64,000 nt of DNA from Amoebophrya sp. A120 (GCA_905178155.1 CAJINV010000002.1:2512226-2576225), one strand, 5' to 3'; counted from the stretch's first letter, positions 207-64,000 are shown. Notes: a model not told the origin generated them from the letters alone. Program-made: numbers and translations.

Positions 207-1274
207 CTAGGTTGCAAGCCTCTCCCTTTTTCTCGGTTTCCCGATTCTCGTTGATCGAGGCTCTGTGGCGACAAAAACTGCCGACTTGTAGGGTATTGTA
301 GCATCGCTAGTATTTATCATGTTGTTGCACAACAAGAAAATGAGAAAATTAACCAGTACTGCTTTCTTCAGCGCGTCGGACTCCGCAACGCCGATATGGA
401 AATGAAAAATCCCCCCTCCCCATATCAAAACGGAAATTTGTGATGCTGATTTGTGGCCACAAATCATCTTTGTCTTGCATATAGGGTCATAGTAGCCATT
501 TGACGCATTCCAGAGCAAGTCTGTCATGCGCTTTCGACTACTGCAAACCTGTTTGCCATGCGCAATTGCTAGCCTTCTGCATACCCAAACAGGGTCAGAA
601 AATGCCACCAAGCACTTTCTGCAAGACAGATCTGATTTGTGTACGCAAATCCAGCATCAAAAACTTCGTTTCGATATGGGGAGGGGGGGTTTTCCTCTCA
701 ATAGCCGGCAAAGAAAATCAACGCGGCCACCAAGGTTCCAAACAGCATCAGAAGGCAGGCCCGACCTCCCGTCCCGGCGCTCGAGGGTTTGCTGGTGCTG
801 TGCGGAGGCGGACCGCCAGCCGCCTTCCACGTCGCATGATTTCCGGCAGTGCCCGCGTCGATGTCCCGGAGCAGCCGCGCCGTCACCGAGGCACTGTCTT
901 CGCCGTTTTGATGTTCCGACGTGGTGTTTATGCATGGAAAATATGCCTGGGTCTGGAAGATTGCAACTTGTCATGCTAAATCTCAACCATCCAAACATCT
1001 GTGTTGCATGACGGCCACAAGCTGTCCGCTCTTGACCAAGTTCTTGAGGGGGAGTTTCTCATGCAGGCAGGATAGGCAGGATACAGACCTCACAGAGTCT
1101 ATCATGCTTGGCCCCGCATTCCAGACTTATTTACGGGTCATGGAAAACCTGCATGACAAACCTTGCACTCTTCCAGACCCAGACCACGCATTTGCATTTG
1201 ATAATGTTCGTCGTGTTTTCGTTGCCATACACGGCCACGAATTCGGCCGTGCCGTCCAGATTTTGCCGCAGCAT
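207..1274 (-). CDS. Hypothetical spliced protein with a hydrophobic segment (ends uncertain)
   Basis: Removing inserts 929-1203 and 395-703 (+5 nt each) gives MLRQNLDGTAEFVAVYGNENTTNTTSEHQ...LLMLFGTLVAALIFFAGVAESDALKKA. The true start and 3' end are unresolved. Confidence 0.45.
395..703. mobile_element. Introner-like intron, family B
   Basis: TIR TATGGAAATGAAAAATCCCCCCTCCCCATAT; DR GCCGA/GCCGG. Confidence 0.85.
929..1203. mobile_element. Introner-like intron, family A
   Basis: TIR core CTGGGTCTGGAAG; DR GTGTT/ATGTT. Confidence 0.85.
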
Positions 1275-2804
1275 TTTTCCTTCACGGTTGGTTCTTCTGG
1301 TGTGTCAGCTCGCAAAGTCGAGAGTTTGGTTTATTTCTCGTCTTCGCTACGGATGGAGAGCGGCGTCTTCTCGCGGTAGCTTCAAGTAGTAGAGTTTATT
1401 TTTGTCGCAGAGCTTTTCTTCTCGTAGTTCTCGCCCTCGTGGAAATAATTTGTGCTTTGTGAAGTTATGGGAAAAGTTTTTGATAATTATTGTAACAATA
1501 GACATCAACAAAAAAAGGGTGCAGTTCGTTAAGTGGCGAGAAGTGGAGATGGGTGGTTCTTCTTCTTTGAATTCAGTACGTCGGAAATATAGTTCTTTAA
1601 GTGTTGAGGAGGCGTTCTTTAGGTGATTTAATATTTTCGGCAGTTCTTTAGGTAGTTGATGATGCAAAACAAGAACAACAGTCAGAGACAAAAGCAAATC
1701 TTAAAGCTAAATGCGGCGGGGGTGGAAAAATTATGCAAAAACAAAACAAAAATTTTGGGTTGTGACAAAAACCACCGATCAGTGCGGGGATAGCAGTCAC
1801 TGTGAGCAGAACAAAGAGAAACAACGTGTCAACTACATCAATGCGATCATATAGTCAGTTCTTCCAAATGGCCGGCAGCGGACTACTAGTACGTAGTACT
1901 CAATTTCTATTCCTATCTCCACCGAGGAACGAGGTAAGATCGCATACTAGACAGACAGAAGATACCTCCGTACTAGACGAACGAACGTTTAGTAGGCGCA
2001 CGATAATATGTTGTGTACGAGGAAGAGGTATACTGGTGCAGAAAACGATCACCAAACCGACGCTGGCGCGCATTTTCATGATGTTTGTCCGGAAATAAAA
2101 CCGAGGGAACTGCGACGCCATACGGCGCGACCGAGGCTGCTCGGAGTTGCAGTACAGAGAAGTTGTGCCGCATTAGTTCTTTTCAACGAAACCGAAACGA
2201 AGGGAGTTTTAAAGGTAGAGCTGTGTCGGCTTGCGTGTCCTTAGAAATATGGACGAATTTTCTTCTTGGACGATACGGGAAAGCCACACCACCGACAGTA
2301 GTGCGTGGGAGAGAAATCTTTCTCAAGAACCTCGTGCGATTTAATTGTTCTCTTCATCAGAAGGGGATAGTACGTACTACCACCAGCACACCACCTACGC
2401 AATAAATCCCGTTGCAATTTTGTATCGCACGGCGTTTAGATGAATCATATCACAGCACCGACAGAGAGCTGCCACGACAACGACCGAGATACAAAAAAGA
2501 TCAATCCTAGCTCGGGGTAACACGGTAACATGCTTTCATTTTTCAGCGCAAGGTGATGCTCCACCTTTCATGCGCTTTCGCAGAAGGAATGCTGCCTGGT
2601 TGTGAATGTTCGCTGTAACAAGAAACCTATCTTTACTCAGGTCGCGGTCGTGCTGCCCCACAATAAATGATCGGGCGGAAAAAATAAATTATGTGCAAGA
2701 TCAACTAGAGAGGGCCTTGCAGATGATGTCAACCCCTTTCTGAAACAGCACCTTCCTTATTTATTTCGAGATAGTCAGAAACGACGAATATACGAATAGC
2801 ACTC

Positions 2805-5800
2805 TTATTCGTCCGGCTCCAGCATTTCCAGAGCGATCTCCATATCCCCAAGAAAAGCACACCCATAGAAGCACCAGAGAGAAAAAAAATTTGTCGGGCT
2901 GTTTCTTGTGCTGTCGCATGACAAGTGCATTTGATGTTGTTCTGGGTAGATTTATTGTCATGCGGATTCGCATTACATTCTCGATTATGCATGACAAAAA
3001 ACGAAAACCGCTTCTCTTGACATCAATCAGCATCATATTGTTTTTGCGCTACCAGAAAAACAGCAACACAAATTCGATCTTCATCTGGTATGGGTACACG
3101 TGTTTTCTGTAACATATTTCAGATTCTCGATATCCTTCGCCCGTTTTTCTATCCTGTGTAAAAACAACGTCCCCACCCCAGAGTCAAGATGGCAATTCTG
3201 CAACACAAATCCAGAAGTTTTGGGAGTCCCGCATGACAAGTTGTTCTCTGTACTTTAATGGTGCGGGTTGGCAAAGACAGCCGCATGTTCACAAAACCAT
3301 CCTGGTATTCTGTTCTCAGCATCACAAATTGCATGATAACGCGATTGAAAATAAAAATGCCTCTCATGGGGATACCCATTGCAAGTTTTCCTGTGATTGT
3401 AATTCTGTATGACAACTCTTGGGAGGTGCGGACGTTTTTACCCAGGATATTTTCCTTCTTTTCCTTCTCCAGTTTCGCCGCCACCTCCGGGTTGGAAACT
3501 ACCTCGCACTGCAGCTCCAGCTCTTGCTTCTGTTTCTTACAGCTTTCGATTTCCTCCAGCGCTATCCAAGAGAAAAAAGTGATGTTGTAGAAGACTGACA
3601 TGTTGACCAGTTTCACGAAACTTTTTCCTGCAGGACGACAGGAGAGGTCTCAAAAAGATACACACGTCAGTTCTTTACACTTCTAACCTACAACATAATT
3701 TTCCTTGGTTACACGTTGCCGCGAGTTCATTTTCCAGTTCTGTCAAATCGGCGTTTGAGTTCGCATATCAAATGCAAAAGTGTCTGGGTCTGGAAGATTG
3801 CCATGTTTGTCATGCACATTTTGCTTGACTCCTGATGTCTGTGCTGCATGCTCTAGCATCACAGAGTTTGTGAGGGCTTCCTGATGCCTATACCGCATGA
3901 CAAATGCTCTTTCCGTGGAGCAAAACTTGGACTCTCTTTGCTGCTCATGCAATACAGATTTTTATTTTTTTGAAATCCAAAATCAGCATGACAAGCTGGA
4001 TTCTTCCAGACCCAGACATTTTTACAGTTGATATCGCAACGCTTCGCTTCAGGTTCTTCTTTTCCGAGTCGAGTACGGCCTGCTCTTCTTTCATGGACTG
4101 GACATTATGCACTGCAAATATGTGGTCTCCGGCGTGCAAGTTTGAACTTGTAATGCTCGTCCATACATTCCTGTGACATCTGTATTGCATGACCAGCTAG
4201 AGCCGTAGCCTCTTTTGTCACACAAAAAACGCAGTTTCTGATGCGGAATGTGTACGGGAAAAAACCGTTCTGAAAATTCTGGAGAGTTGTCATGCTTGAC
4301 TGCATTCGAGAGTGTTTTCGCCATCCACTTTTTCGCATCACAAGTACTATCCAGACGTCCAGGGTGGAGTTTTGCAGTGCATAGACATTTTCTTCGAACA
4401 TTTTTTTCTCATTCTCCTCCCCCGCGGTCAGTTCCAGCAGCTGCTTGGAGTAGTTATGCATTGCAACTATGTCTGGGTCTGGAAGGATGCGAACTTGTGA
4501 TGCATGTGGCGGATCATACCAACATTTGTGTTGCGTGACTTGCAAAAGGCGCCCATTTTTGGTTTATGCCGAGAGGAAATTTGTCATGCAGAACAGGCAT
4601 CACCAAGGGGTTGCAGATCGTGTGATGCTAGGCCCTGCTTTCCAGACTTGGCGGAGCTTGGAAAAACTGCATGACAAATCTCGGACCCTTCCAGACCGAG
4701 ACAATTTTGCATCTGATAGTAGTCCAGCTCTAGCTTTTCCAGCAGGGAAAAAATCTTGTCTTTGGTCGATACAACAGTTTCTGACTCCTGCGAAGAGGAA
4801 GAAGAAGAGGAAGAAGAAGTCACCGCTTCTCCCGTCCCGTAAAACTTTTCCAGCACCACCCGCGCCCTCGCGACCGCTTCCCCGGAGGCTTTCGCATTCG
4901 TGGTTTCTTTCTCGTTTTCGTTCTTCTTCTCCGTGCGGAGAGCCGTCATCTGGTCCTTGTCCTCGCTGATCTTTTTCATTTTCTTATCAAAAGGAAAAAT
5001 CCCCCCTCCCCATATTGAAAACAGTAAAGCGCGTCCTTGTGATGCAGATTTGTGGCCACAAATCTTGTCTGTCTTGCCAGGAGGCAAATCCAGAGAGCCC
5101 GCCGCGATATGCAGGCAGTTTGTAATGCTGCAAGGCCTACAGGGCAGACGTCTGCCATGCTAGGCCCCTACACCAAAAAGCCCCCCCTTAGGCTTGGGAT
5201 CTGCGTGCAATGCTTTCCTGCAAGAAAAATGTGATTTGTGTACACAAATCCCGCATCACAGATTTCCGTTTTGATATGGGGAGGGGGGATTTTTCATTTT
5301 GATATTTCTCCGCGATACTCTCCAGCTTCGATGCCATCTGCTCCAGTCTCTATCCTACGTAGAAACGTCCCCAACCCATGGCTGTCATGCAAATCTGCAT
5401 GCTCAGAATGTTTCTCATGCGGAGCGCCATGAGAAGCATTTCCGATTCGTGTTTCGGAATTTGCAATGCTCCAATCAGCAGAATAGGCTAGATCTGTCAC
5501 GCTGCTGGACGACCTAAAGAGCACTACACTATGAGGCTAAACTTGTCATGCGCAACAGCCTAAGCTTGAGGATTTGTATAGCAGATTTCCCATTTTGACT
5601 ATGGGGCAGGGATGTTTTTACTCAGGATAGACTTGCTTCCAAATTCTCTTTTTTGATCCCCAAGTCCGCTTGCTTTTGGTTCGCGGAGGCAAGTTCTTCC
5701 TTGTTGTTACCCAATTGCTCGTATCAAGTGCAAATATGTCTGGGTCTGGAAACTTGTGCTGCTGGATTGTCAATAGTGAATGCTCTGCAATGCACAGGAG

Positions 5801-8800
5801 CCAAGCATGAGAAATAATCTTTGCGCGGCTTAGTATTGCGCTTTTCTTTTTCGCATGACAAATTGCGTTTTTGCATGACAAGCAAAAGGGTCTCTTCCTG
5901 GACACGCATCACAAGCTCTTTAGTCATGCCAGACAAGCATGACAAACTTTGCACCCTTCCAGACCCAAACATATTTGCAATGCGTAGCTCCGTGCAGAAC
6001 TGCTCCTTTTTCAAATTTTTCGCCGCCTCTTTTTCCAATTTCGCAATCATGTCCGCGATCATCTTTTTCACGCTGTCAAAAGCATCGTTTCCGCTGCGGA
6101 GACTGAGGTTGACTTGCGTCCCGTATCCTGTGTAAAAACGTCCCCACCCCATAGTCAAGGTGGGGATTTTGCAACATACACCTAGAAGCTTTGGGACTCA
6201 CGCATTACAAATGGCAGTCAGTAGTGTAGTGCAGGTTAGCAAGGACACCCGCATCACAAATCCATCTGCTTATCCTGGTGACAGCATTACAAATGCCAAA
6301 ACACGACTAGAAACGCCTCTCATGGAGATACGCATTACAAATGTTCCTGTCATTGCAAATCTGCATCTCAACTCTGGGGTGGGGACGTCTTTACAAATGA
6401 TATTCCGGCTTTGCTCTTCATCAGAAACTTCGCCGTGTTCCGGAGTTTCTCGGCCAGAAAAGCGACGGGAGACGAGGCTGGAGAACGACGAAAATGATTA
6501 TAATTTGAAGAGCTTTTATTGCTCTGCCCCAGTACTATTTCATCCACTTGCGACTGGCTAGTCCTGATCTTATTTCCTTCGTCAGAAGGAGCGCTTTCAC
6601 TTTGTTCCTGCGCAGTGTCAGCGTCAGCAGAAAAAATCACGTCGGCCGCTTTTTGCAACAAATACGGCAGCTGCTGCGCTCTCGATGGCTGTAGCTGTTG
6701 TGCTTTGGTGAGTGTTCTTGAAGCTGCCGTTTGCAGGAAAGTAGAGGGGGGTTCTCCTTCTGTGTCCGGTGTTGCTGCGGAGGTGCTATCAGCAGTAGAT
6801 GAAGACCCCGCATCAGAAGAAGAAGAAGTGAACAAACTGTCCACGTCAATGATCGAAGCAGAAGCTCTTGCACCAGATTGCTCAGCGGCATTGGAAACCA
6901 GAAAACTGGCCTTCTGCCCTCCATCAGGATTTTTTTCCGAATTAGTCCCTGCTAAAACTTCTACCGCCTCCTTCAAAGCTTCCGCTTCCTCCTGCTTCAC
7001 TTTGATCTCTTCCTCGTACTCCCGCGTCCGCACCCGCAGTGTCGTCTTCGCCTGTTTCGACGCCTGCTTCGCCTTTGCGAACTGGACCGTCTTTTCCTCT
7101 AATTCTTGCTCGAACTTCGCGGACTCAGTTTCCTTCTTCCCGATGCGTTCCTCCAAATCCGCTTGTTGCTGCTTCAGATTTTTCACGCGGGTGCGCATCG
7201 AGGATAACTGCAGCTCGCAATTGTGCGACCGTTCGTTCTCGGCCACAAGGCGCTGCTTCTTTTCTTCCTGCAACTTGTCCGACATGTCGGTCAAGAGCTG
7301 TAGGATGCGGGAGTAGGAAGTTGTGGGGGATTTTTCTTTCAGCTGTTCTTTTCCTCGTAGACCAACAGTGGAAAAGTTCGACAAGTCCTCTCGCAGCAAC
7401 TGGGTTGACGACGCCCTTTCGACTTCTACCCCTGCTTTCTCTGTATTAGTGCTGGTCGAAGCTGCAGCCTTAGCTAACTGGAGAAACAACGACGGCGGCC
7501 GCTGCTGGGTGGAAGGAGAAGACGAAGAAGTACTAAATGACTTCTCCTCCAGTAGCATTTTCTTTTGAAATCTCTCTTCCTTCTCCAACCTCGCGTTGAC
7601 TTCTTGCTTTTCTTGCAAAACTTTCTTGTCCTCCATTTTTTTCTTCTCCGCAACCATTTCCTGCATTAGCATCTTGTCCGCGGAGGTTATGAGTGCGAAA
7701 TCTAAACATGGCGAATCAGCATGCGAAAAAACCGACATGCAACTACTCCGTGTTGCGATAAAAATCTAGATGAACCTGCATGCTATTGTGTATGCCGCAA
7801 TGCAAAGTTGTTTTGTGAACCACGCCATGCAACACAAATTGTTCCGACTCATCTTCCCGATTCACACATCATAACCTCCTCCGCGTCTTCCGTTTTCTCC
7901 TCGTTCTTCTCCATCGTCTCCATCTTGGAAATCAGCTGCCTCTTGGGGTTTATGCATGAGAAAAGTGCTACATGTAGGCGACTACGCAATACAAATTTTT
8001 TCAAACAAAATCAAACTTGTTATGCTCGGAGCCGTATAATCTGTTCACATAATACTCTGGTCGTTGTACTCTACAAATATGAAACTCTTTTCCCCAACCG
8101 GATAACCTTTTCAATCGTTTTGATCGACTTTTCCGTTTTGTCAAAAGCGGTCCGAAACTCCCGCAGCTCCGTCTGGCACTGCCCTTTTTTCTCTTCCTTC
8201 TTCTGTTCGAGCGGCCCTAATTCTTCACTTCCCACCTTTTCCAGAGCGAGTTTTGCTGCTTCGCGGTCACCGGTCGTTTTCTCGCGCAAAGCGGACAGTT
8301 CCACGAGGGTGGTTTTCAGTTCCTCCAGATTTTGTTCCGTATCTGCGACCTCGTGTTTCAGGAGTTGCTCCTCTTGCGCAAACTGCTTCTCCGCTTCGGA
8401 GGTCGCGGATTCGTTATCCTGTGCAAAAGCACCATCGCACTCGTAGTAGTTGCAGCCATGCATGACAAATCCAACTTTCTACCGGGACTAGCATGACAAG
8501 TTGCGTTTTTGTTCGTGAGAAAATTTGTGATGCACCAAATCGTACTAGTGCGATACTTTTGCAATGCGTATTCGTTCTCGGTTTCTAACTTCTTCAACAG
8601 CTCGACCACTTGCTGCACACCCGCTGCCGTCGCGGCAGATGCGCTATCGCTTCCCAGTCCCTCCGCTGCGGTCGTCGACGCGACCAGCCTGATACCCTGT
8701 ACCGCGAACGAATTTGTCCGGTGGCCGACGAGGAGAGCGAGGAGCAGGGGCGTTGAACAGCCGGCAGAAGTGCGGAGGATGGACTTGCAATTCCTCGCGG

Positions 8801-11620: not shown

Positions 11621-12039
11621 GCCTAACCTAGAGCAGAAGATAGCGAAGAAGTAAGCGCCGATCTTCACGGCCACCACGGCTTGTTCCCTCCATCCCATCC
11701 CTTTTTGCAGGTCCGATCAGAATTCCATTTTACAGCGTTCCGAGTTCTTTCAACATTGTGCTACTCCAAACCATCTGCTCAGCGACCAGTGCTCTACTAC
11801 TAGACAGCGACACCTAAGTTCAAAAGCCGTTTCCTAAAAGGATCTTTCACACGCCCACAACTACAAGCTGCGTACCCGCGCCACAAGTTTAATATTTTTC
11901 ACAAAACGAAAAGCGCAACAACCGAGGCTGTAGTAAGTAGCGACAAGCCTTTCAACCTCCCTTTATTCTGCGGTAGAACTACAATTGTTCCTTTGACGCT
12001 AATTTACTTCTAGAAATCATCCACAACCCGCACAAAACT

Positions 12040-17851: not shown

Positions 17852-19070
17852 ATGATCTTCCGAGCCTCCGTATTGGCGTTCCACGTGCACAAGCGGTCGC
17901 ACCTCAACCCGGAAGCCGAACAAAACAGCGGGTTTGTGCAAGCCCAGCGGCCGCCGCACCTGGCGCCGCTGGCCCCGGATTACGCGACCGCGCAGTGGAC
18001 GCAGGGGGCGGCGTCGCAGCACCCGCGCTGGGACATCCTGGCGTCGTCCATGTTGCAGAAAAAATTGCAGTTGAAGAAGAAGAAAACGGAAACGAAAAAG
18101 CAGCAGCTCGCGGAACAAGTCGCGAAGCAGCAGCAGCAGGAGAAGATGGCGAAGACGCAGGAAATATCAAATGCAAAAATATCTGGGTCTGGAAACTTTC
18201 CTAGATTTGTTATGCAGATTCTCCATGATCCATGATGTCTGTGATGCATGCCGTAGCGTCACAGTTTTTTTGAGGGGTTCTTGATGCCTATTCCGCATGA
18301 CAAATACCCCCACTACCGCGTAGCAAAAGTTACATTCCCTTTGCTGCTCATGCAACACAAATTTTTTTGGAATCCAAACGCAGCATCACAAGTTGCTTGT
18401 TCCAGACCCAGACATATTTGCAATGCATAGGAAATGAAGCAGCAAGTGCAGGAAAAGCCGGCCCCGTTGGAAAACGACCCGGGGAGCACCAGCAACCAAG
18501 CGCCGATATCAAGTGCAAAAAAAGTAATTGTAAAGCTGTAAACGCAAGAACAAATTTATTTTCGCATGGATAACATGCATGACAGATTTGTTGTCAGATG
18601 AAAAGTCTGCATCACAGATTTTGGATGAAGTCAAGAAGTCGTCCGCAAATTGCTCCAGCTGGTGTGCGATACTTTATACTCTTGTACTGCATATCCCGCT
18701 TCCGTGCCAGGCGAGTGGTGCGGCTGCTGCTGCTATGCATTGCAAATATGTCTGGGTCTGGAGGGTTGCAACTTGTCATGCTAAATCTGAATCATGCAAA
18801 ACATTTGTGTTGCATGATTACCAACAGCCGCCCTTTTTTACCAAGTTGAGAAGGAATTTCTCATGCAGGATAGGCTTGAAAGAGATCTCACAGAATCTGT
18901 CATGCTAGGCGCTGCATTTCAGAAATCATGGGTTATGGAAAACCTGCATGACTCCAGACTCAGACACTTTTGCACTCGATAGCTGCGGCGGGGAAACGCC
19001 GAACCTGCAGGCGAAGCTGTCGACTAGTTCGAGCTCCTCCTCCTCCTCTTCTTTTCTCTCGGCTCACTAA
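17852..19070 (+). CDS. Hypothetical K/Q-rich protein, 4 exons
   Basis: Three inserts removed (+5 nt) give ..KTQEMKQQVQEK..NQAPTSVPGEWCGCCCGGETPNLQAK..SAH*. Confidence 0.6.
18165..18429. mobile_element. Introner-like intron, family A
   Basis: Family A TIR; DR GGAAA. Confidence 0.9.
18507..18693. mobile_element. Degenerate introner-like intron
   Basis: TATCAAGTGCAA / TTGTACTGCATA; DR decayed; frame restored. Confidence 0.65.
18734..18981. mobile_element. Introner-like intron, family A
   Basis: Family A TIR; DR GCTGC. Confidence 0.9.
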
Positions 19071-51300: not shown

Positions 51301-54300
51301 GGCTTCTTCAGTCCGTGGACTAACCTGCGAAGGCCTATCCGGACCCTCGGCAGGTTTTCCTTTTTCATTAGCTGCCTCGACTCTTCGAAAAATCTGAACA
51401 GTTTCGGCGGGGAAGTGTGGCGGCTTGGCTTTTTTGTTCCTCTTTTTTGTGGCGCTGCCTTTGCTTTCACTTCTAGTTTTTTTGTGTATTCGATCGCGTT
51501 GTGCTTCGGGAAGTCTCTGTATCCACCGCAAAAATGTTCGGTGCAGTTGGTCCTCATCTGGATAAAGTGTAGTGTTTTGTCCTGCTTTAATTTTCACACG
51601 ACAAATGACAGGGTTGGGACTGCAGGAGGCAGACAAGAATGTTAGGTAGTTTTCAACATTGAAGCGGTAAATTCTTATCCTGTAGTGTGGCGGAGGCTCC
51701 TTACAATCACACACACCAAACTGAATTTTGCATGATAAACAGACAGTGCCATCCGGAGTCCGCAACATGCTGCATGGTAGACTTCAGGGCCGCTTGCGTG
51801 CGATTTGATCGTCGTGATATAGATCGCAATCTATCTTCCAGACGAGGATCCAAATCACCAAACTTCTCATTTGATATTCCAACATCCCGAAAATGCCACG
51901 CCCTCGTTCGGGCAGCTGCACTATCAAATGTAAAAATATCTGGGTCTGGAAGATTTTGAGATTTGTCATGCTTGTCCAGCATGACCAAAATGTTTGTGAT
52001 GCGTGTCCAAGTAGAGACCCTTTTGCCTGTCATGCAAAAACCCAGTTTGTCATGCGAAAAGCGCAACACAAAGAAGCGCAGATATTTCTCATGCTTGCCT
52101 GTGCATTACAGAGCATTCACTATTCCCAACGTAGCATTACAAGTTTCCAGACCCAGACATTTTTACATTTGATGTGCACAGCGAAGGCTCGTCGGCGGGT
52201 CGTGGGCAACCCACACCGGATTTCGGCGGGGGAGTATTGAGAGGAAAATTCCCCCCTCCCCATATTGAAAACGCATTCGTCTGAAAATTTGTGATGCAGA
52301 TTTGAGGTCACAAATCCTGTCTGTCTTGCAAGAAGGCAAAGCCTTAGAGTCCGCCGCATTATGCCGGCGGTTTGTGATGCTGTTGGGCTTACAGGGCCGA
52401 CGTCTGTCATGCTAGTCCCCTACGTCAAAACCTCTCGACCCCGGCTTGTTATATGCCTGGAGTCCTCTCCAGCAAGACAGACTGATTTGCGTACGCAAAT
52501 CCAGCATCAGAAATTTCGTTTCGATATGGGGAGGGGGGATTTTTCCTTTTGATAGGGACAACTTCTACACCAGGAGCCTTCTGACCAGGCAAGTGCACGT
52601 GAAGAGGAACAAGAGCGGCATCAGACTCGGTCTTCGGAGGAGGCGGAACAAGAGCAAGAAGCAGAAGAGGTTTTTTTGTCACCGGACTCCGCCGTGGAAG
52701 AGGAACCAGCCGAACCCGCTGGAGATGAATCTTCATCACATGATGACGCGGGCGGCGCCGGCGATACGATGGTGCAAGAGCAGCAGCGCGCCCTCCCTGC
52801 GGCCGCAGCGCCCCCTGCTGGCCCGGCCCCGAGGAGTCTCTCTCATCCTGCTGTCGACCGGCGCGGGGAGCGCTCACCCGCACCAATTCCGAAGACAGGA
52901 GCAACTGCTGCGAACAACAAGAACCACCATCCGACGCTATTGGGCGGGGCTGCCAGGAGAGAAATCCCGCAAGGCGGATCTTCGGGTAGCTCCAAGGATT
53001 CTTCGTCCTCGTCGAACAGATCAAAAGTGTCGTCGAAATCGCTACAAGGTGGTGGTCGTCAAGAGGAACGCGAGGGGCTTGTTGTTAACCCGCATTTATG
53101 TGCCTTCTACAACAACAATAACAATGTAGTTCCGCAGCACGACAGTTCGTTCCAGTCGAACCATGCTCCGCTGAATAACTCTTCTACCCGACAGAAAAAA
53201 GCAGGCAGGGCATGCAGTTTGATGTAAATGCAGAAATAGACTAACAGAAAAAGCTGCCACGGGCGAGTCCACAGCGCCGTCCTGCTTTGGATATAATCCT
53301 TGCAATACACATTTTATTGTTTATTTGTGTTTGCATTACAAAATGAAAATGCTCTGTCTGTCTTTTTCTTTGGCATATCTTCCTCCGATTCGGGCCCACG
53401 ACCGGTCAAGCTGGTTTTGGATTCCTCATCCAGCAGCCACAATGCCGGGCCTGTAGTTCTTCCCGCAGCGGAAGGTGGTGAGCAAAACGCAAACAGTTTC
53501 GACGCGGGTCAAAGTGTATCAAGTGCAAAAATGTCTGGGCCTGGAAGGATGCAACTTGTGACGCTGCATTTGGATTCCAAAAAAAACTGTATTGCATGAG
53601 CAGCAAAGGGAGTGTAATTTTTGCTACGGGAAGAGGGCATTTGTCACGCGGAATAGGCATCCAGAAGCCCTCAAAAGATTTCTGACGCAGCTAGGGCGTG
53701 CATCGCAGACATCATGGCTCATGCAAAACTTGCATGACAATAATTCTCAGAATGTTCCTGATCCAGACCCAGACATATTTGCATTTCATAAAGTGAGGTG
53801 GAGGAGCTGGAGCACCAGAACTTGTCCAGCATCCTACCCCAACGGTCTTCCGTGGCCGCGTCCTCCCGGGAATCCTCGAAGCAGGAGGTGGTATCAACTG
53901 CAAATATCGATCTGGATCTGGAAGATTGCAAGATGTGCAATGCTATTCCGGCATGACTCTGAACTCTGTATTGCGGGGCCGCAAAGTAGAGCTTCTCTCG
54001 CCTGTCATGCAAAAATGGAGCTTCTCAATCTCATGCGGAGTACGCAACTCAGAACTACGGAAATAAAGCTGGTTGTGCTTGCTTGGCAGCGCATTGCAGT
54101 GCGCATGCATACTCACTATTCCCTTTCTTTCATCAGACCCAAATCGATATTTGCAGTGCATATAATTTGGAGGTGCTGGACGACAACGTTCCGCAGTTTG
54201 TGGAAACTGGTGCAGCCGCGCATGCAGGTGTCGCAGACGACAACATTTTTGATCAGCAAGAAAACGCCGGCTCTTCTAATCTTGTGGTCCCTAACATCAA

Positions 54301-57300
54301 CCAGGAGGAACAGCAGCAGCAGCAGCAAATTCCACCAGGAGCAAGTGTGGAAGCTCCTGCAGCCTCCTCTACATCGTCCAGAGGTAGTCAGCAGCAAAGT
54401 CTTCAAAATGTTGGTCCGCAGCTGGTGCTACCGCCACCAGCCTCTGCACAGCGATCGCATCGTAATGTCGACAACCACGACCACGCCGATTATGATCCTT
54501 TTTCAGCTGCGAGCCCGCCCCTCGGGGCGATCCCAGCCACCAGCTTAGCAAAGGACCACGAAGATGAGGATGACGAGGCGCTGGAGGCGCCCTTGGCGCA
54601 GCAACCTCCGCCGCCGCCGCCTGCGTCGTCCAACGAAAGTTCGCGCCTGTTGGAGGATGAAAAAAGAGCAGAGGAGGATCCCCTGTTGCGAATGCGGGAA
54701 CCGCGCCAAGGCCAGCCGGCTGGGGACGAGCTCGTCGAGGATTTGGAGAGGGAATTGTGGCCCGAATTTCCAGTTGAGGTTGGTCGCAACGTCGATGAAA
54801 GGATGAGGAGGGCGAGGGATGCGGCCGAAAGGCAAGAAGTGTTGCAAGGTGGTGGAACAACAAACGGAAATGATGGGAACAACGAGAGACTTGCAGCTCC
54901 GGAACGAGACGAGTTACACGACTCTCCTTCGTTTCTTTCCGCCGTGGGGCACCCCGACCACAGCCGTGAGGACGAAAATTATCGCAGCAGTAGCAATCTG
55001 CAGAGTGGCGCTGGCTCGTCTCAACACTGGAATCAAAAGGACGAGCCGGAATCCCCTGTGGAGCAGCAGGACCACCGAGAAGACCTTCATCCGGTATCAA
55101 ATGCAAATATGTTTGGGTCTGGAAATTGGTGATGCTAAAATGTGCATGATGAAAGCACTTCCTCATGCAGGAAAGCATGACAAGTTTGCAGAACGCTTTC
55201 TCATACGAACTTTGCATGAGAAACTGCGTTCTTGTATGACAAGAGAGGCTGCCACTTTTGTTGGTCATGCAATACAGATTTCACTGGAATACAAGACCAG
55301 CATTACAAGAAGTTCCAACTGTGCAGTCCCAGACACTTTTGCAATGCATATCCGAGTGACCAGGACCGGAGTCAGGTGGAGTTCCATTCCTTCCAAAACA
55401 CCAGTTCCTTCCAGAACACCAGTTCCTTGTTCAACAATTCCCAGCAGCAAAATTTCCACCATCACCAGCCACTTCTACCGGCAGGTTCCCCGCCGTCTTC
55501 CTCTTTACCCGCGAGTTCCCCCTCAGGAGGCGGGTTGCAGGCAACCGATATGGACACCTACCCCGGGCCGCCGGCTCCGCGCCCAACCACTATCCGATGT
55601 AAAAACATCTCCACCCCGTAGTCAAGATGGGGAGTCGGCTAGACAAATCCGCAAGTTTTGGCTGTTTGGCATGGCAAATTTGGACCCGTAGTGTAGGGCT
55701 GTTTGAGGTACTGTTCAGCAGCATCGCAGATCTAGTACATCATGCTGATTAAAGCATGACAAAACACGAATAGAAAACGCTTCTCATGGGGCTCCGCATG
55801 CGAGACATTTTCAGCATGCGTTTTTGCGTTGCAACTATGGGCTGGGGGCGTTTTTAAATACGATAACCACACCCGCAGAGTTTGTCTTGCCGGAACGGTC
55901 GGACGGGCAAGAGTTTGGCGTGGAGTTGTTGGACGAGGAAGTATCCCGTGCAAAAACATCCCTACCCCAGGATTGTCATGCAGTTCTGCATGCCAAAAAA
56001 GTTTCTCATGCCGACCCCTATGAGAAGCATTTTCTGTTCGTGTTTTGGGATTTGTCATGCTAGGATCAGCATGCTGTGCTAGATCTGTGATGCTTCTGAA
56101 CTTACTACCTCAAACAGGATCACACTACGAGGACAAACTTGATGTTATGCCAAACAGCCAAAGCTGTGTGATTTGTCTAGCAGATTGACTCTGGTGGTGT
56201 GGGGACGTTTTTGATCGGGATAGGAAGAGGAGAATAATCGTACGAACTGGCTGGTGGATATTCCGAACGGAATAAATGAGGAGGGGCATCAAAGCTTCCA
56301 AAGCAACGAGCAAGAAAGCAGCGACGGGCGGGAACGAGAAGGACAGGAAGGACGGCAAGTGCAGGGCTCGTTATTTGTTCCGCACGAGCAGGGGTCGGAA
56401 GCAGATGACATTAACCCCAACAACCACGGTGCTGTTGGCGAACAAATGGATCGACAAGGAGATGAGGAGCCTTCATCTGCCGCCCCGCGTGATGGTAAGA
56501 ACAGCGGAAATACTTTCCTGCTGGGCTTAAAAATCAAACCATTTTCGCTGCGATCAGAAGCAAACAGAGGTCGAAACGTCTTCCTGAAGCCGGAGGAACA
56601 ACAGGAACTCGCGTTTAGAAGTGGAGTGCCTGCAAGTGCTGGTGCTTCAGTACTATCTGGTACTACAGCGACGTCGAGTGGTTTAGGAGTAAATAATGAT
56701 CTCACTGCAAACAATAATAACTACATTGCCTCGACGTCGTCTTCATCTTCATCGCTGAACAGTGCGGGGGCTGCTCTCCAGCAGCGGCAGGACCCACACC
56801 GAGCTGCTGGGACAGTGGCAGGAACAGGAACTTCAACGCTGTTATCAAATGCAAAAATGTCTGGGTCTGGAAGAATGCAACTTGTGATGCTGTATTTGGA
56901 TTCAAAAAAAATGTGTATTGCATGACTAGCAAACGGAATGCAATTTTTGCTACGCTGAGAAGGCATCTGTCATGCGAAATAGGAATCAAAAAATCTGTAT
57001 TGCTAGGATATGCATCACAGACGTCATGGCTCATGCAAAACGTGCATGACAAGTGTCAGAATCTTCCAGACCCAGACATTTTGCCAGTTGATAGCTGTTT
57101 GGGGTGCCGACCGAATCGAGTAATCTGTTCAAACGGGGATTTATTGCCAACATGCCGGGATCTCAGCCGGCTTCGCAATTTAACGGTATAACGCCGGGAA
57201 CATCGGGAATTGAAACTGGCGGCAATAGTAACAACCCCTTAGTACCAACGGTGGGGCTTTTCTCTAGTCACTACAGCAACGGCGACAATGCTACACCAGC

Positions 57301-60300: not shown

Positions 60301-63300
60301 TCCACCTCCTCCTCCCGTGGAATCTCGCCGTTCGGCGTCCGCGCCGGTTTTTTCATCTGCGCAGACTAGTACCAGAGCTGCTGGTGGCGCTAAAAACTAC
60401 ACCCCAAATAAATCTCCGCCACCGGGCTATGGAAAAGTTGGGAAAAATCAACAGCCTGTCAGACCTCGGCCGGAAGTAATACGACGACATCAGCACGACC
60501 TCCTCCTGCAACAGCAGCAGCCGCAGCCGCAACAGCCGCCGGTCTCGTCGCGACCAAACAACGAGCGTAATGATCGAGTAACGAGTCCCTCTCCGATAGC
60601 AGAAGTGTCTCTCCCGATTTTGCAGCCTGGAAGTAGCGAGAAAATATTAGTAAATGCTGTTCGGTCTTCTGCTCAGTCTTCCTCTTCCGGAGCGGCCGGT
60701 GGTGCTCAGCAGGGTGTTGGTGTCTTGCAACAACAGCAGCAGCAGCAGCAGCAGCAGCAAATACAAGGCCAGCTTCAACCAGCAAACCCATCACCCGAAC
60801 AAGAATCGTCGCGTGGACGGTTCGGCCAACAAGCCTCCAAGGACGTTTCAGTCGTGGTTCCTGATTCCGTCAACCGCAGTAAAAGTTCACGGAGTCGGAG
60901 GCTGAGCGTCGAGCGAAAAGTTTCCGCCTACGATATCACCGCCGCATATTGAGAGGAAAAATCCCCCCTCCCCATATCGAACAGGCATGCTTTCGAAAAT
61001 TTGTCTTGCTGATTTGAAACCACAAACCACGTCTGTCTTGCAAGAGGACAAATGCAGAGGCTTCCGCGCCATTACAGAAACGATTTGGCATGCTGTTTGG
61101 CCTAGAGGACAGCCGTTTGTAATGCTGAGCACCTAGACCCAAATGTCCCTCCCTAGGCTGCGGATCTGGCTGCGATGCCGTATTGCAAGACAGCGCGCAT
61201 TTGTGTACACAAACCCTGCGTCACAGATTTCCCATTTGATATGGGGTGGGGGCTTTTTTCATTTTGATACCGCCGCCGGGCTCACTCCCCTCGACACCAT
61301 GGAGAACCCGTTTATTGATTTATCCAACCCTCGTATGCAAGAAAAAAACTGTGTAAGTGTAAATTTGTGTTGCAGAACATGCAACAGAGTTGCGCCTGTC
61401 ATGCCAGACAGCCATGAAGTCCTCTTTTCATGTGTGTTTTCCCTTACAAGCCACGCATGACAGGTGTTCTCTGTCATGTAGAGCAAATTTGTGATGCTGT
61501 TTCCCAAAGAAAGTTATACTTACACACTTTTTTTCTTGGATACCTCGACGTGGTCTACCGCGCTCGAAATCGGAGAGTGCAATTGGTTATGCCTTGCAAA
61601 AGTACCGTACTAGTATGAATAGCATCACAAAATTTTGCAAGAACATAAAGTGGAATTTGTAATGCTGTTCCAGGTTTGGAAAGAGATTTATCATGCATGA
61701 CTGCAAGGATAATTTCTACGAGTGCGATCATACTTTTGCAGTGCATATTGGTCGCCTCAGCGATTTGAACAGGGGTAGCAGTAGCGGCGAAAAGATGCGT
61801 CTGTCCTCGATGATTCGAATGGGTATAATGCTCCTCTCGTCGTCGTCGGCGAAAAATAATGTTGACAAGAATCTGCTTCGAAGTGGTCAACAACACTTGC
61901 GCTCGTTGTCTTCGCGCAACAGTCGCCAAGGACGAGAAAATAAAACAAATCGTGACTATTCGTTTGAAAAAATAGCACCACCGAATTTCGAATCGATTGA
62001 TCCTTCGCAGCACAACATCGATGGAGGAGAAGTAGGTGTAGTCCAACCTTCGAACAACAGTAGAAACTTCGATAGCAATTCGATCAATCCTCGACTCGTG
62101 AAAATATCTTCGCCGCTCCATCGTCGCATCGAGCCGAAGCGTTCGTCTATAGCGGCGGAGGTCGGCATGAAGCGACTTTTTGCTGGGGAGATAAATAGCA
62201 AAGAAACTGTGAGGTCAAGAACCTCTAGTCAGGATCAGGAAGGAGCTGGTAATAGTGGAACAGTAGGAATAACTACGCATTCGCAGCATGGACTAGCGCA
62301 AGAACAACACGAGGACCAAAGTTCTTCTGTGGCTTTTCCAACTGCGACCGAAAATGAAGACGAGCTGTACAACTTCGGGACGAGAACTAATACTAACAGC
62401 CAGAACTTGGTGAGAAACGACCTTCACAGCGGCGCTCGTACGGGACGATTGTTCTTACCACCTGCCCGTCCTGTTGCAGCGAGTTCTAGCTCGGCCGCAG
62501 CAGAAGTCGCACAACAACTACCCCAAGCACTATCACCAGACCGCTCTTCCGAGAACAACCGGAGTCGGCACGCTATCGTACCGGCCCAAGCTGTGGATAA
62601 CGAGGCAGGTGACTGGTTCAATCCGTTTGTGAAGTCAAAGGAGACGAGTGTCAGTAAGAGCAGTGACAGTAGTTGTGACAAATCATCTGGCGATATCGCA
62701 CATAGTAAACTGCAGAAAGATGAAACAGAATTTCTGGACACTGAAGAAGATTACTCGAACACCATCACTGCGGGTTCTCGTGCAGGAGTAAATCAAGCAG
62801 GACAACTACAACATCAAAGGACAACTACAAATACAATCTCTGCTGCTGCCGTTCCGAAGAACCATATCAACCAAAACGTTCAACCAATTGCGAGTGCCAC
62901 AGGACCACGAGCAGCAGCATCGTCACCGACCAATCAATCTTCGTCATCTGCCGCGGCGCATGATCCTCGCGTTGGGAATCTACTAGACCCGCAACAGCAG
63001 GTGCAGCAATCGAGCAGCGCAACGAGCGGCGAAGAAGACCTCGTCCACATCAGAGAAGAAACGCCTTTGAGCCGCAACGCGGTTTCGAAGCATCCCAGTT
63101 TTGCGTTAGCTCCGCAGAGTCGGAGTGTAGTAAATACAACAGCTCTTGTACTTCCTATCACAGCGGCATCAAATTTTGCTGGTGCATCTTCCACAGCAGC
63201 AAATCCCGCTGTACTACTCCTCGCCGCAGCCGCTCCTGCGTTAGGAGGTGTACAACTACCAACGGGAGGCAAAGGCGGCCAAGTCGTGGCTACTGATACG

Positions 63301-64000
63301 ACCCTAGGAACTTCTGCATCTTGTTCCCCTAGTGCAGCCACGAAGGGACTAAACCTACAACAACCATCAAGCTGGACCTCCAAGGGGACAGGGAAAAAAA
63401 TGACGGCCGGCTATAATTTAACATCCCCAGCTTTTTCTGTCCAGAACATTTACCAATCCCAGCTGGATACCGAGGAAGAGCGAAAACGCATCCTACAGTA
63501 CCAGCAGGCCATCCGCGCAGAGGATGAAAGAAGACTCCGGGAAGAAGAGCGGCGGGTTGCCATTGAAATGGCGGAAATCCAAAACAAGGCCTGCCCGGCG
63601 CACATCTACGAGCCGGGGAGCAATAGACTGCAGTTGGGAGGTGATGGAGAAGTATTGAATCCAGAGCCGGACAGCGATATCCTGTGCAAAAGTATCGTAC
63701 TCGTATTGCAATCATGCATTACAAATCTTTTGCGTAAGGTAATTCCGCATTACAAATTTTATTTCTCACGCTGAGGAAATTTGTAATGCATTTGTACGAG
63801 TACGATACTTTTGCGGGGCATAAGCGAGAGGAAGCGCCGGAAAAAAGATTTGAACGAGCGAGAAATGCATGAACTGGAAGAAAAGGGATTTATCAGGAGT
63901 AAACCGCCAATGCTGGTGGTGGGCAGCAGCAGCAGTAGTAGTCTTGGTGCCGCCGCGCCGCGGTCGAGTTCCGTGCCGGTAGAATTACTCTTCTTGATAT
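27320..64000 (+). CDS. Very large, mostly low-complexity S/Q/E-rich protein with UIM-like motifs and a coiled-coil; runs off the window
   Basis: One reading frame traced by hand from ~34 kb to 64000 across more than 25 inserts. Several junctions between 27.3 and 34 kb are unresolved, so this could be more than one gene. UIM-like EEVQIALAMELSR and EDLELERQAIALSLEK lie in the 58.5-60.9 kb exon. Confidence 0.65.
27907..28165. mobile_element. Introner-like intron, diverged family C
   Basis: TATTCTTTGTAAAA / TTTTACAGAGGATA; DR CTTCA. Confidence 0.8.
28471..28694. mobile_element. Introner-like intron, family A
   Basis: Family A left TIR; DR TGCTT. Confidence 0.85.
29327..29569. mobile_element. 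Degenerate introner-like intron with possible GT-AG ends (29326-29576)
   Basis: TATGCATTGCAAA..TTCATTG / CAATGAA..TTTGCATTGGATA; DR lost. Confidence 0.7.
34993..35217. mobile_element. Degenerate introner-like intron
   Basis: TATG..GATA; DR CAGCA; joins ORFs 33957 and 35315 in frame. Confidence 0.8.
36248..36436. mobile_element. Highly degenerate TAC..ATA intron
   Basis: Frame restored by removing insert +5 nt; TIR weak. Confidence 0.5.
36597..36904. mobile_element. Introner-like intron, family B
   Basis: TACCAAAATGAAAAATACGCCCTCTCCATAT; DR GACAC. Confidence 0.85.
37038..37352. mobile_element. Introner-like intron, diverged family C
   Basis: TATCCTGTGCGAAAACCTA / TAGGTGTTTGCCCAGGATA; DR decayed; frame restored. 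Confidence 0.8.
38090..38348. mobile_element. Degenerate introner-like intron
   Basis: TATCAGAAGGGAATGATGAAC / GTTCATCTTCCGTCCGATA; joins KLE|LIRAQ. Confidence 0.75.
41074..41236. mobile_element. Introner-like intron, family D
   Basis: Diverged family D TIR; DR TCTGC/TCATC; frame restored. Confidence 0.8.
41396..41646. mobile_element. Introner-like intron, family A
   Basis: DR CCTGT; near-copy of 12485-12736. Confidence 0.9.
41756..42086. mobile_element. Introner-like intron, family C
   Basis: Family C TIR; DR decayed; frame restored. Confidence 0.85.
42120..42376. mobile_element. Introner-like intron, diverged family A
   Basis: TGTTGTCTG / CAGACAACA inverted; DR GATAC/GCTGC; frame restored. 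Confidence 0.7.
43147..43352. mobile_element. Introner-like intron, singleton
   Basis: TAT..AGAAAAAAG..GTCAC TIR; DR CCTGA. Confidence 0.85.
43383..43693. mobile_element. Introner-like intron, singleton with ~53-bp TIR
   Basis: CAAAGTTGAAATGATTTGTCATGCATA perfectly inverted; DR CAGTA. Confidence 0.9.
45706..45928. mobile_element. Introner-like intron, singleton
   Basis: TIR TATGACAGTGCACAACTCCCCCTCCCCTTCATTTGT; DR GGGGC. Confidence 0.9.
49165..51876. mobile_element. Expanded (2.7 kb) family-A-like intron with triplicated left TIR and two nested inserts
   Basis: Left TIR at 49165, 49961 and 51520; matching right TIR ends at 51876; removal +5 nt gives ASSR|HPENATPSFG in frame. Confidence 0.7.
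49427..49597. repeat. Tandem array of ~7 units (24-26 bp), TCCGCTTgtCGGAAAGT..., each a mini-hairpin
   Basis: Directly visible; two alternating unit types give a ~50-bp higher-order period. Confidence 0.85.
51922..52174. mobile_element. Introner-like intron, family A
   Basis: Family A TIR (right end GATG); DR TGCAC. Confidence 0.9.
52235..52554. mobile_element. Introner-like intron, family B
   Basis: Family B TIR; DR GGGAG/GGGAC. Confidence 0.9.
53185..53377. mobile_element. Introner-like intron, singleton
   Basis: AGAAAAAAGCAGGCAGGGCAT / ATGCTCTGTCTGTCTTTTTCT; DR TCTTC. Confidence 0.8.
53517..53790. mobile_element. Introner-like intron, family A
   Basis: Family A TIR; DR AAGTG. Confidence 0.9.
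53892..54162. mobile_element. Introner-like intron, family A
   Basis: TATCAACTGCAAATATCGAT / ATCGATATTTGCAGTGCATA; DR lost; frame restored. Confidence 0.85.
55095..55350. mobile_element. Introner-like intron, family A
   Basis: Family A TIR; DR TCCGG/TCCGA. Confidence 0.9.
55591..55865. mobile_element. Introner-like intron, family C
   Basis: Family C TIR; DR ACCAC. Confidence 0.9.
55942..56222. mobile_element. Introner-like intron, family C (inverted paralog of 55591-55865)
   Basis: Family C TIR; DR GGAAG. Confidence 0.9.
56843..57093. mobile_element. Introner-like intron, family A
   Basis: Family A TIR; DR GCTGT. Confidence 0.9.
59607..59775 (+). repeat. Coding tandem repeat (EHLERQKQLAEQERR-like, ~45 bp, ~4 copies) in the coiled-coil
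   Basis: GAGCACTTGGAGCGGCAAAAGCAGCTGGCCGAGCAGGAGCGGCGT repeated. Confidence 0.8.
60947..61269. mobile_element. Introner-like intron, family B
   Basis: Family B TIR; DR CCGCA/CCGCC. Confidence 0.9.
61334..61542. mobile_element. Introner-like intron, singleton
   Basis: TATGCAAGAAAAAAACTGTGTAAGT TIR; DR CCTCG. Confidence 0.9.
61588..61747. mobile_element. Introner-like intron, family D
   Basis: Family D TIR; DR TTGGT. Confidence 0.9.
63678..63822. mobile_element. Introner-like intron, family D
   Basis: DR AGCGA; near-copy of 21941-22085. Confidence 0.9.

What the first reader, a model, noticed from the sequence alone, without database searches (positions are those of the whole stretch)
395..63822. 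One internal motif (TTGTNATGC / GCATNACAA) is shared by introns with unrelated TIRs
Seen: families A, B, C, D and most singletons differ in TIR and internal sequence, yet carry several copies of (T/C)TGT(C/G/A)ATGC in both orientations. There are about eight degenerate copies in 12485-12736, and the motif forms the inner end of the TIR in 43383-43693. It also persists in introns with decayed TIRs or GT-AG ends (near 14690, 24020, 25392, 27503) and appears rare in long exons. Inference: a common cis-code, either subterminal binding sites for one shared transposase or a protein-binding or pairing signal that marks the segment for excision.
Basis: partly seen in the sequence, partly recalled or inferred. 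Interest (0 to 1): 0.78.

Follow-up and report, generated by a model that had tools for sequence, protein, structure and literature searches.

The report
Helix-phased motif inside transposon-born introns
Unrelated families of small transposon-derived introns, in what is likely the marine parasite Amoebophrya, share a short internal DNA motif spaced in step with the DNA helix; the motif is absent from some introns that are still spliced, so it likely marks docking sites for the enzyme that moves these elements rather than a splicing signal.

Summary
Observation confirmed. YTGTVATGC occurs 132 times versus 3.3 expected; 124 lie in 55 TAT…ATA elements with 5-bp target duplications, 2 in 23.6 kb of exons. 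These look like the published Amoebophrya A120 introners. Their TIRs are not wholly unrelated: nearly all share TAT-N7-AAA.

New: the motif recurs in eight unalignable backgrounds, diverges four times slower than its flanks, and is rotationally phased (same-orientation copies typically 31-33 bp apart, opposite copies half a turn off, best period 10.4-10.6). This replicated in 435 metagenome elements, more weakly in singletons.

The splicing reading fails most tests. In likely-RNA contigs 13 of 15 listed joints follow an end rule, N|TAT…ATA|NNNN; 4 of 15 spliced introns lack a strong motif; 13 of 47 elements carry one orientation only; density falls as target duplications decay (21 to 9 per kb).

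Best reading (0.68): subterminal binding sites for a shared transposase, as in hAT Hermes. No transposase was found. I found neither motif nor phasing in print, but this scan noted both before on another piece of this genome (e1-10627506).

The parts
395..703 (.). Family B element; motif centres (element-relative, > forward, < reverse) >48 >80 >131 >163 <231 <264
929..1203 (.). Family A element; >44 >75 >132 >175 <192 <227
2843..3116 (.). C-like element; <78 >117 <151 <225
3150..3449 (.). Family C element; <55 <86 <174
3766..4033 (.). Family A element; >46 >78 <95 <134 <188 <225
4106..4383 (.). Family A element; >47 >79 >135 >186 <234
4455..4718 (.). Family A element; >45 >76 >131 <219
4985..5304 (.). 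Family B element; >57 >89 >140 >172 <240 <273
5351..5629 (.). Family C element; six copies in one orientation >36 >66 >115 >148 >197 >228
5722..5986 (.). Family A element; >37 <88 <136 <156 <189 <220
6124..6402 (.). Family C element; <83 <132 <165 <213
7684..7874 (-). Old unique intron, TAT/ATA ends kept (element 7688-7873), one strong motif; fits N|TAT..ATA|NNNN with no ambiguity
7947..8105 (-). Old unique intron (element 7951-8104), one strong motif; fits the end rule with no ambiguity
8415..8570 (-). Family D element, spliced (161 nt skipped = element + 5); <50 <81 >115
12485..12736 (+).
12806..13059 (+). Family E element, spliced; >57 <102 >151 <199
13145..13295 (+). Family D element; <38 <56 >72 >105
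13541..13802 (+). Family A element, spliced; >44 >75 >129 >168 <217
14583..14717 (+). GT-AG intron = G + decayed TAT..ATA element + TCAG; motif at 14690
14821..15003 (+). Old spliced intron with TAT/ATA ends and no site scoring 10 or more (one at 9.7)
15226..15967 (+). 742-nt spliced intron (GT..GG) filled by a tandem array; TAT/ATA ends kept; no motif
16013..16277 (+). Family A element, spliced; >46 >78 <95 <134 <188 <219
18165..18429 (+). Family A element; >47 >79 <135 <192 <223
18507..18693 (+). D-like older element; <75 <107
18734..18981 (+). Family A element; >44 >76 >129 >168
21139..21393 (+). Family A element; >44 >112 >132 >171 <219
21614..21899 (+). Older family B element; <118 <153 <208 <239
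21941..22085 (+). Family D element, spliced; <43 <74 >90 >108
22485..22736 (+). Family A element, spliced; >45 >76 >109 >129 >168 <216
22901..23069 (+). Internally shortened family C element; >36 >66
23955..24159 (+). GT-AG intron = G + TAT..ATA element + GTAG; single motif at 24018
24598..24770 (+). Ordinary GT-AG intron without TAT/ATA ends and without motif (control)
25106..25249 (+). Spliced non-canonical intron (element 25107-25245) with no motif
25329..25527 (+). Spliced intron with decayed left end; motif at 25392
27503..27511 (-). Isolated motif in a putative decayed intron; no RNA cover
27907..28165 (+). Older family C element; <128 <214
28471..28694 (+). Older family A element; >45 >113 <172
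29327..29569 (+). Old singleton TAT..ATA element, no internal motif
30537..30766 (+). Old singleton element, no motif
32431..32592 (+). Old singleton element, no motif
34993..35217 (+). Singleton element; >110
36206..36436 (+). Old singleton element; one site <122
36597..36904 (+). Older family B element; >48 <158 <193, no exact copy
37038..37352 (+). Old C-like element; >229
41396..41646 (+). Family A element; >45 >76 >109 >129 >168 <215
41756..42086 (+). Family C element; >42 >92 >156 >198 >246
42120..42376 (+). Old A-like element; <84 <207
43147..43352 (+). Singleton element; <50 <68 >84 >126 <143 >158
43383..43693 (+). Family F element; motif is the inner end of a ~53-bp TIR; >46 <152 <184 >217 <266
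45706..45928 (+). Family G element; >37 <84 >132
51923..52173 (+). Family A element with nine sites; >45 <61 >76 >109 >129 <145 >168 <185 <216
52235..52554 (+). Family B element; >59 >91 >142 >174 <242 <274
53185..53377 (+). Singleton element; <122 <153
53517..53790 (+). Family A element; >44 >75 >129 >168 <188 <220
53892..54162 (+). Older family A element; >79 >115
55095..55350 (+). Family A element; >37 <85 <124 <179 <210
55591..55865 (+). Family C element; <83 <135 <168 <210
55942..56222 (+). Family C element; >36 <51 >66 >115 >148 >236
56843..57093 (+). Family A element; >44 <82 >129 >157 <174 <206
60947..61269 (+). Family B element; >59 >91 >143 >175 <276
61334..61542 (+). Family H element; >36 >67 <126 >142 >160
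61588..61747 (+). Family D element; <39 >74 >105
63678..63822 (+). Family D element; <43 <74 >90 >108

Best explanation
The motif (consensus RYYTGTVWTGC) is a conserved, helically phased array of sites inside otherwise unrelated MITE-like introners, and it likely serves as the subterminal DNA-binding sites of a shared, still unidentified transposase complex that moves them, while removal from RNA likely depends on the TAT...ATA ends instead. Shown: enrichment, sharing across families, conservation, 31-33-bp and ~10.4-bp phasing, preferred first-site distances from the ends (36-37 or 44-47 bp for inward-facing copies), 5-bp target duplications, the end-anchored splice rule, and spliced introns without the motif. 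Inferred: a protein binds the sites on one face of double-stranded DNA; that protein is the transposase (a multimer that wraps the 150-320-bp element and pairs its ends); sites are selected in mobile lineages and erode after a copy stops moving.
For: Phasing near the B-DNA repeat holds in each window group separately (A, B, C, D, singletons; p = 0.0005-0.0075) and in one-per-cluster draws. It holds in 8 sequence-independent groups with correction for period choice (9 of 9 representative sets p = 0.005-0.010, best period 10.4-10.6). A 31-33-bp direct pair occurs in 7 of 10 TIR groups versus 1.35 expected. In 435 metagenome elements scored with the window-trained matrix the period again peaks at 10.2-10.4 and all 11 multi-copy groups are positive. 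Core divergence is 0.048 versus 0.200 for other interior bases in 336 copies with perfect target duplications. Density falls 21.3, 18.3, 14.1, 8.7 per kb for target-duplication matches 5, 4, 3, 2 (n = 319, 86, 22, 8). In 32 older copies the added divergence of cores (0.030, CI 0.008-0.058) overlaps that of flanks (0.049, CI 0.009-0.088). Eight unique spliced introns keep TAT at 14 of 16 ends but have 3.5 sites/kb versus 23.2 in six spliced family copies. Sites are 120 sense and 96 antisense. In the 1.1-kb element L090:505-1608 six of seven sites lie in the first 214 bp. The terminal 13-mer is itself a weak outward-facing copy (p = 0.016). Precedent: Hermes subterminal repeats are interspersed, in both orientations, include one inside a TIR, and their 'exact phasing is crucial' (PMC10368747 passages); the Emigrant MITE's subterminal motifs bind the Lemi1 transposase (PMC1636448 passages).
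Against: No transposase was found: 14 ORFs, including the long element's, gave no Pfam hit, and Farhat et al. report none in A120. No binding was measured. Phasing is imperfect: family F scores 0.02-0.08 and C 0.18; recurrent spacings of 18, 33-34 and 48-49 bp are off phase; a second peak appears at 6.25; among 23 metagenome groups including singletons only 16 are positive, and without the 30-33-bp pairs the signal is weak in random draws (p = 0.0025, 0.03, 0.15). The period and half-turn offset were chosen after seeing the window data. In the older copies TAT ends also gained divergence (0.030, CI -0.002-0.067), so that test does not separate ends from cores. Old introns still hold 15-30 times the exon level of sites. 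Contigs show that splicing occurs, not how efficiently.
Confidence: 0.68

Rival explanations
1. The phased sites bind a host DNA-architectural or chromatin protein (or bend DNA themselves), which the elements exploit for mobility, insertion or transcription through them; the transposase reads only the ends.
For: Helical phasing fits any double-stranded-DNA binder. One motif spans families whose inner TIRs differ, which a single host factor would explain simply. No transposase was found.
Against: The motif is nearly absent from non-element DNA: no site scoring 10 or more in four non-coding stretches totalling about 7.2 kb and 0.1-0.2/kb in exons. It is tied to preferred distances from element ends and weakly resembles the terminus itself.
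Confidence: 0.15
2. The motif is an RNA signal (protein binding or internal pairing) that marks the segment for excision, alone or as a second job.
For: It is confined to introns and persists as single copies in GT-AG and decayed introns. In some families opposite copies are predicted to pair (65 of 212 sites with probability above 0.5; families B, F, G). Old introns retain more sites than exons.
Against: 4 of 15 spliced introns have no site scoring 10 or more. The cut position follows the ends in 13 of 15 joints. 13 of 47 elements carry one orientation only, and the family C consensus is six direct copies. There is no clear strand preference, and one subfamily sits both ways in transcripts. 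A 10.4-nt period has no obvious meaning in single-stranded RNA. Density falls with age.
Confidence: 0.09
3. The motif is a functionless relic of a common ancestral element or of repeated internal duplication.
For: All families share the end signature and the 5-bp duplication, so common ancestry is likely; groups H, I and J show residual homology.
Against: Cores diverge four-fold slower than the bases around them across 471 copies, spacers between 31-bp pairs are unrelated between families, and spacing is conserved while sequence is not.
Confidence: 0.05

Closest known systems
Amoebophrya sp. A120 introner elements (Farhat et al. 2021, PMC7789003; Gozashti et al. 2025, PMC12130899)
   Same: TAT-N7-AAA inverted ends, short direct repeats, non-canonical splice sites, ~150-320-nt lengths, many families. 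One A120 family is annotated '5-bp TSD, TA/TA termini'.
   Different: The passages and supplement text I searched describe only the terminal repeats. No internal shared motif, no phasing and no fixed N|TAT..ATA|NNNN cut rule was seen there (figures not seen). That the window is A120 is inferred from these signatures.
hAT subterminal repeats, Hermes STRs bound by BED domains (Lannes et al. 2023, PMC10368747)
   Same: Short repeated sites interspersed inside the ends, both orientations, asymmetric between ends, one copy inside a TIR, phasing important.
   Different: Hermes has a 4-bp core (AAGT) and an 8-bp target; here a 9-11-bp motif, a 5-bp duplication, TAT ends, unrelated inner TIRs, and the element doubles as an intron. 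No transposase tested.
Emigrant MITE / Lemi1 pogo-like transposase (Loot et al. 2006, PMC1636448)
   Same: A MITE with subterminal repeated motifs related to part of the TIR, bound cooperatively by a transposase supplied in trans.
   Different: One family with a TIR-derived motif; here one motif spans at least eight unalignable backgrounds. 'Helical' and 'spacing' do not occur in that paper's main text.
IS3EU/GingerRoot and Ginger2/TDD integrase-like DNA transposons (PMC10045372, PMC6839031, PMC2836005)
   Same: IS3EU/GingerRoot have TA..TA termini; TDD-4/5 make 5-bp duplications.
   Different: IS3EU/GingerRoot duplications are usually 6 bp; Ginger ends are TGTNR; 'subterminal' does not occur in the GingerRoot text.

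Membership tests
Amoebophrya A120 introner elements | Inverted ends starting TAT, seven variable bases, then AAA | tested here: met
   (terminal profile); families E, F and G lack the AAA
Amoebophrya A120 introner elements | 3-5-nt direct repeat at the boundaries | tested here: met
   5-bp duplication, 0.92-0.95 match per position in 200 elements, about 0.25 for other lengths (partly ascertained); RNA skips equal element + 5
Amoebophrya A120 introner elements | Removed from transcripts at mostly non-GT-AG sites | tested here: met
   15 listed joints of 23 in likely-RNA contigs of one sample; ORFs restored
Amoebophrya A120 introner elements | Host is Amoebophrya A120 | not tested
   No genome held; run names are coded; inferred from signatures only
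MITE | Short, non-coding, TIR and target duplication, high copy number | tested here: met
   summed depth of run X5 is 10^4-10^5 over most young elements versus about 30 on unique DNA
MITE | Cognate autonomous transposase | tested here: inconclusive
   None in the window or among five long TIR pairs in 156 metagenome loci; a tiny sample of the genome
hAT superfamily | 8-bp target duplication | tested here: not met
   5 bp. A 5-bp 'hAT5' group is named in an earlier scan note and recalled; my search did not verify it
hAT superfamily | Interspersed subterminal repeats in both orientations with set phasing | tested here: met
hAT superfamily | BED-domain DDE transposase that binds the repeats | not testable with these tools
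   No transposase sequence in hand
IS3EU/GingerRoot | TA..TA termini | tested here: met
   terminal profile; definition
IS3EU/GingerRoot | 6-bp target duplication | tested here: not met
Ginger1/Ginger2 | TGTNR termini | tested here: not met
   Ends are TAT; definition
Splicing signal (RNA cis-element) | Required for excision | tested here: not met
   4 of 15 spliced introns have no site scoring 10 or more; efficiency not measured

The most novel reading that the evidence does not exclude
One multimeric transposase reads a single helically phased internal code shared by many introner families with different inner TIRs, wrapping each 150-320-bp element. The elements thus carry two separate codes: an internal DNA code for mobility and a terminal TAT..ATA code that an unconventional splicing machine reads with a fixed 1-nt/4-nt offset. 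This would explain how a genome reported to lack a transposase gained tens of thousands of new introns.
Probability: 0.45. Interest if true: 0.8.

Novelty: new variant of a known kind. Interest (0 to 1): 0.6.

Why it matters
How Amoebophrya's introners move and how they are spliced are both open: the describing paper found no transposase in A120 and no U1 snRNA. The motif gives a concrete DNA bait for finding the mobiliser, a signature by which to recognise autonomous partners, and a phasing prediction (a 5-bp shift kills, a 10-bp shift rescues). Showing that splicing follows the ends, not the motif, narrows the splicing signal to about 14 bases at each end.

Tried and rejected
Whole-genome test: no genome held, so 156 metagenome loci (703 kb, overlapping) were used instead. 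They share no long unique sequence with the window, so whether they are the same strain is unknown. Viral-contig scan for three clustered motifs: the 68 loci were tandem or coding repeats and phage-like intergenic repeats, with no TAT..ATA elements seen. The first RNA lay was swamped by paralogous copies from run X5; raw-read run X8 covered only element fragments, no exons; no RNA cover beyond about 26.7 kb, which says nothing about expression. No RNA holder was listed on record as RNA; X1/X2 are taken as RNA because they join across inserts that X5 contigs contain. The first clustering of metagenome elements left short D copies unclustered and so over-weighted them; it was redone by TIR type and by subfamily consensus. 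A pure 31.5-bp lattice fits worse than 10.4-10.5 (0.21 versus 0.50). Searches for an autonomous element found only a non-coding 1.1-kb element. The hAT5 definition could not be verified. A word search of earlier findings returned nothing, and so did the 'near' look-up.

Full report
WHAT THE WINDOW IS. Coding frames are interrupted by 140-330-bp inserts that begin TAT and end ATA, with inverted ends and a 5-bp direct repeat. [quoted passage not shown] Element lengths match families in a later table (PMC12130899 supplement 8). The organism is inferred from these signatures; no genome was held. I curated 55 elements: 52 of 63 candidates plus three added by hand. The 11 dropped scored low (the null gave 23-26 hits at that cut-off) and had no motif, which flatters the enrichment slightly (9.1 versus 7.6 per kb if they are added back).

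OBSERVATION. YTGTVATGC occurs 132 times against 3.32 expected: 124 in elements, 2 in 23,558 bp of long exons, 6 elsewhere. The matrix consensus is RYYTGTVWTGC, with common variants such as TTCTCATGC and YTGTRTTGC. Trained without a family, it still finds 10.6-24.5 sites per kb in that family versus about 0.2 per kb in exons. With motifs masked, ten TIR groups align no better than shuffles, except H, I and J with one another, leaving eight independent backgrounds. A metagenome scan gave 169 stretches, stored as 156 loci (703 kb, overlapping), holding 435 distinct elements at a null rate of 1 per 413 kb. 403 of 435 have an exact copy; density is 11.3 per kb versus 0.11 in masked long ORFs. These loci were found with a family-A pattern, so A is over-represented.

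PHASING. In the window, 50 of 117 adjacent same-orientation spacings are 31-33 nt; opposite-orientation pairs cluster at 15-17, 35-39 and 47-49; the best period was 10.2-10.5 in each of the three orientation classes. With period 10.4 and a half-turn offset for opposite pairs, each of A, B, C, D and singletons beats random placement (p = 0.0005-0.0075), as do six one-per-cluster draws. These parameters were chosen from the window. In the metagenome elements the scan peaks at 10.2-10.4 and all 11 multi-copy groups are positive (0.08-0.78), but only 16 of 23 groups once singletons are included; after removing 30-33-bp pairs three draws gave p = 0.0025, 0.03 and 0.15. On subfamily consensuses (window and metagenome copies pooled) the best period is 10.5 (p = 0.003, corrected for period choice); 7 of 10 groups have a 31-33-bp direct pair versus 1.35 expected; a residual signal remains after removing the 31.5-bp lattice (p = 0.005); F (0.02) and C (0.18) are weak, and a second peak lies at 6.25. 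With H/I/J merged, 9 of 9 representative sets give p = 0.005-0.010. Outermost inward-facing sites sit mostly 36-37 or 44-47 bp from the end, about one turn apart, and almost none lie closer than 36. So the robust core is a 31-33-bp direct spacing plus a looser ~10.4-bp rotational preference, with recurrent exceptions (18, 33-34, 48-49).

SELECTION AND DECAY. Across 471 copies aligned to 20 subfamily consensuses, motif cores diverge 0.048 versus 0.200 for other interior bases in the 336 copies with a perfect target duplication, so the motif is under selection in lineages that were moving. In 32 copies with 2-3 of 5 duplication matches, the added divergence is 0.030 (0.008-0.058) in cores and 0.049 (0.009-0.088) in flanks. 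That is compatible with neutral decay after insertion but imprecise, and TAT ends gained 0.030 as well. Site density falls 21.3, 18.3, 14.1, 8.7 per kb with duplication matches 5, 4, 3, 2.

SPLICING. Contigs of runs X1 and X2 (one sample; RNA is the tool's guess) skip inserts that contigs of run X5 contain. Fifteen of 23 joints were listed. Joining by them restores ORFs of 640, 612 and 548 codons on the expected strands. Thirteen of 15 fit N|TA(T/C)...ATA-type end|NNNN on the sense strand, i.e. element + 5, on both gene strands; four of these have no positional ambiguity. The exceptions are an ordinary GT-AG intron and one with a decayed left end. Four of 15 have no site scoring 10 or more (14821, 15226, 24597, 25106), and three of those four have TA(T/C)..ATA ends. 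Eight unique old introns keep TAT at 14 of 16 ends with 3.5 sites per kb (6.1 without the array-expanded one), versus 23.2 in six spliced family copies. Folding gives mean in-register TIR pairing of 0.66, but only 65 of 212 sites pair with another motif, 13 of 47 elements have one orientation only, and sites are 120 sense to 96 antisense (strand assumed for the two elements below 1.3 kb). The motif is therefore not required for excision; a contribution to efficiency is not excluded.

MECHANISM. Shown: a shared, selected, phased, orientation-free, end-anchored array that erodes with age. Inferred: a protein binds it on double-stranded DNA. The transposase is the likeliest binder because the motif is confined to elements, lies only in one subterminal arm of a 1.1-kb element, and weakly resembles the terminus read outward (p = 0.016, but not in four of the groups). 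Precedent: Hermes subterminal repeats, whose 'exact phasing is crucial' (PMC10368747), and Emigrant/Lemi1 (PMC1636448). No transposase was found here. Unreviewed notes of this scan describe giant elements with the same ends carrying hAT-like genes. I did not test them; they moved my closest analogue from integrase-like elements towards hAT. By ends and duplication length the elements fit no checked superfamily fully: hAT 8 bp, IS3EU/GingerRoot TA..TA but 6 bp, Ginger TGT ends.

NOVELTY. The elements are published. I found no report of the internal motif or its phasing: Farhat et al. main-text passages and supplement text (zero hits for the motif string, 'subterminal', 'internal' and 'MEME' in the supplement), and library searches for Amoebophrya/introner/subterminal, TTGTCATGC with dinoflagellate (0 papers), Amoebophrya splicing motif and introner periodicity. 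Subscription papers, figures and theses are not covered. This scan noted the same motif and helical spacing on another piece of this genome (e1-10627506); I saw that note after my own tests, and it is not independent support.

PAPERS SEEN. PMC7789003: abstract, passages, sections 12 and 16, supplement search. PMC12130899: passages, and supplement 8 rows 1-41 of 58 for A120 (files 13-14 not searched). PMC11282704, PMC1636448, PMC2836005, PMC10045372, PMC6839031, PMC10368747: passages. PMC6004678: one search with no hit. Others: listings only. The B-DNA repeat of about 10.4-10.5 bp and the hAT5 label are recalled knowledge.

VERDICT. A real feature and a new variant of a known kind. DNA-level transposase sites 0.68, host DNA-binding factor 0.15, RNA splicing signal 0.09, relic 0.05. 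Interest 0.6.

Noticed in passing
window 49153-51876: A ~2.7-kb composite insert interrupts the long + strand ORF. It has three 59-nt direct repeats (49153, 49949, 51508) each holding a tiny TAT..ATA unit, a 50-nt tandem array (49448-49593) and 8 motif sites at 50158-51734; no Pfam hit. Possibly nested insertions.
   Followed up: partly
window 15226-15967: A 742-nt intron made largely of a tandem array of about 45 nt (read from the sequence) is cut at the end rule (GT..GG) with no motif.
   Followed up: partly
window 14583-14717 and 23955-24159: Both GT-AG introns are G + old TAT..ATA element + NNAG, suggesting introners turn into canonical introns through their target duplication without moving the cut site.
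   Followed up: partly
L090:505-1608: A 1.1-kb family-F element with perfect target duplication: the left 270 bp align to the short F consensus, the interior is GC-rich and non-coding, and the right arm lacks the motif array.
   Followed up: partly
window 13541 and 18750-18801: Raw RNA run X8 (another study) holds reads like family-A element pieces but none on exons at 90% identity, hinting at a related introner family in a diverged relative.
   Followed up: no
L015, L030, L047, L056, L057: Phage-like viral contigs carry a non-coding repeated AGTTTGTGATGCT at about 26-27-bp spacing; judged unrelated.
   Followed up: partly
window 27300-64000: A very long, low-complexity + strand coding region with about 30 inserts; the three of its ORFs scanned had no Pfam hit.
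   Followed up: no
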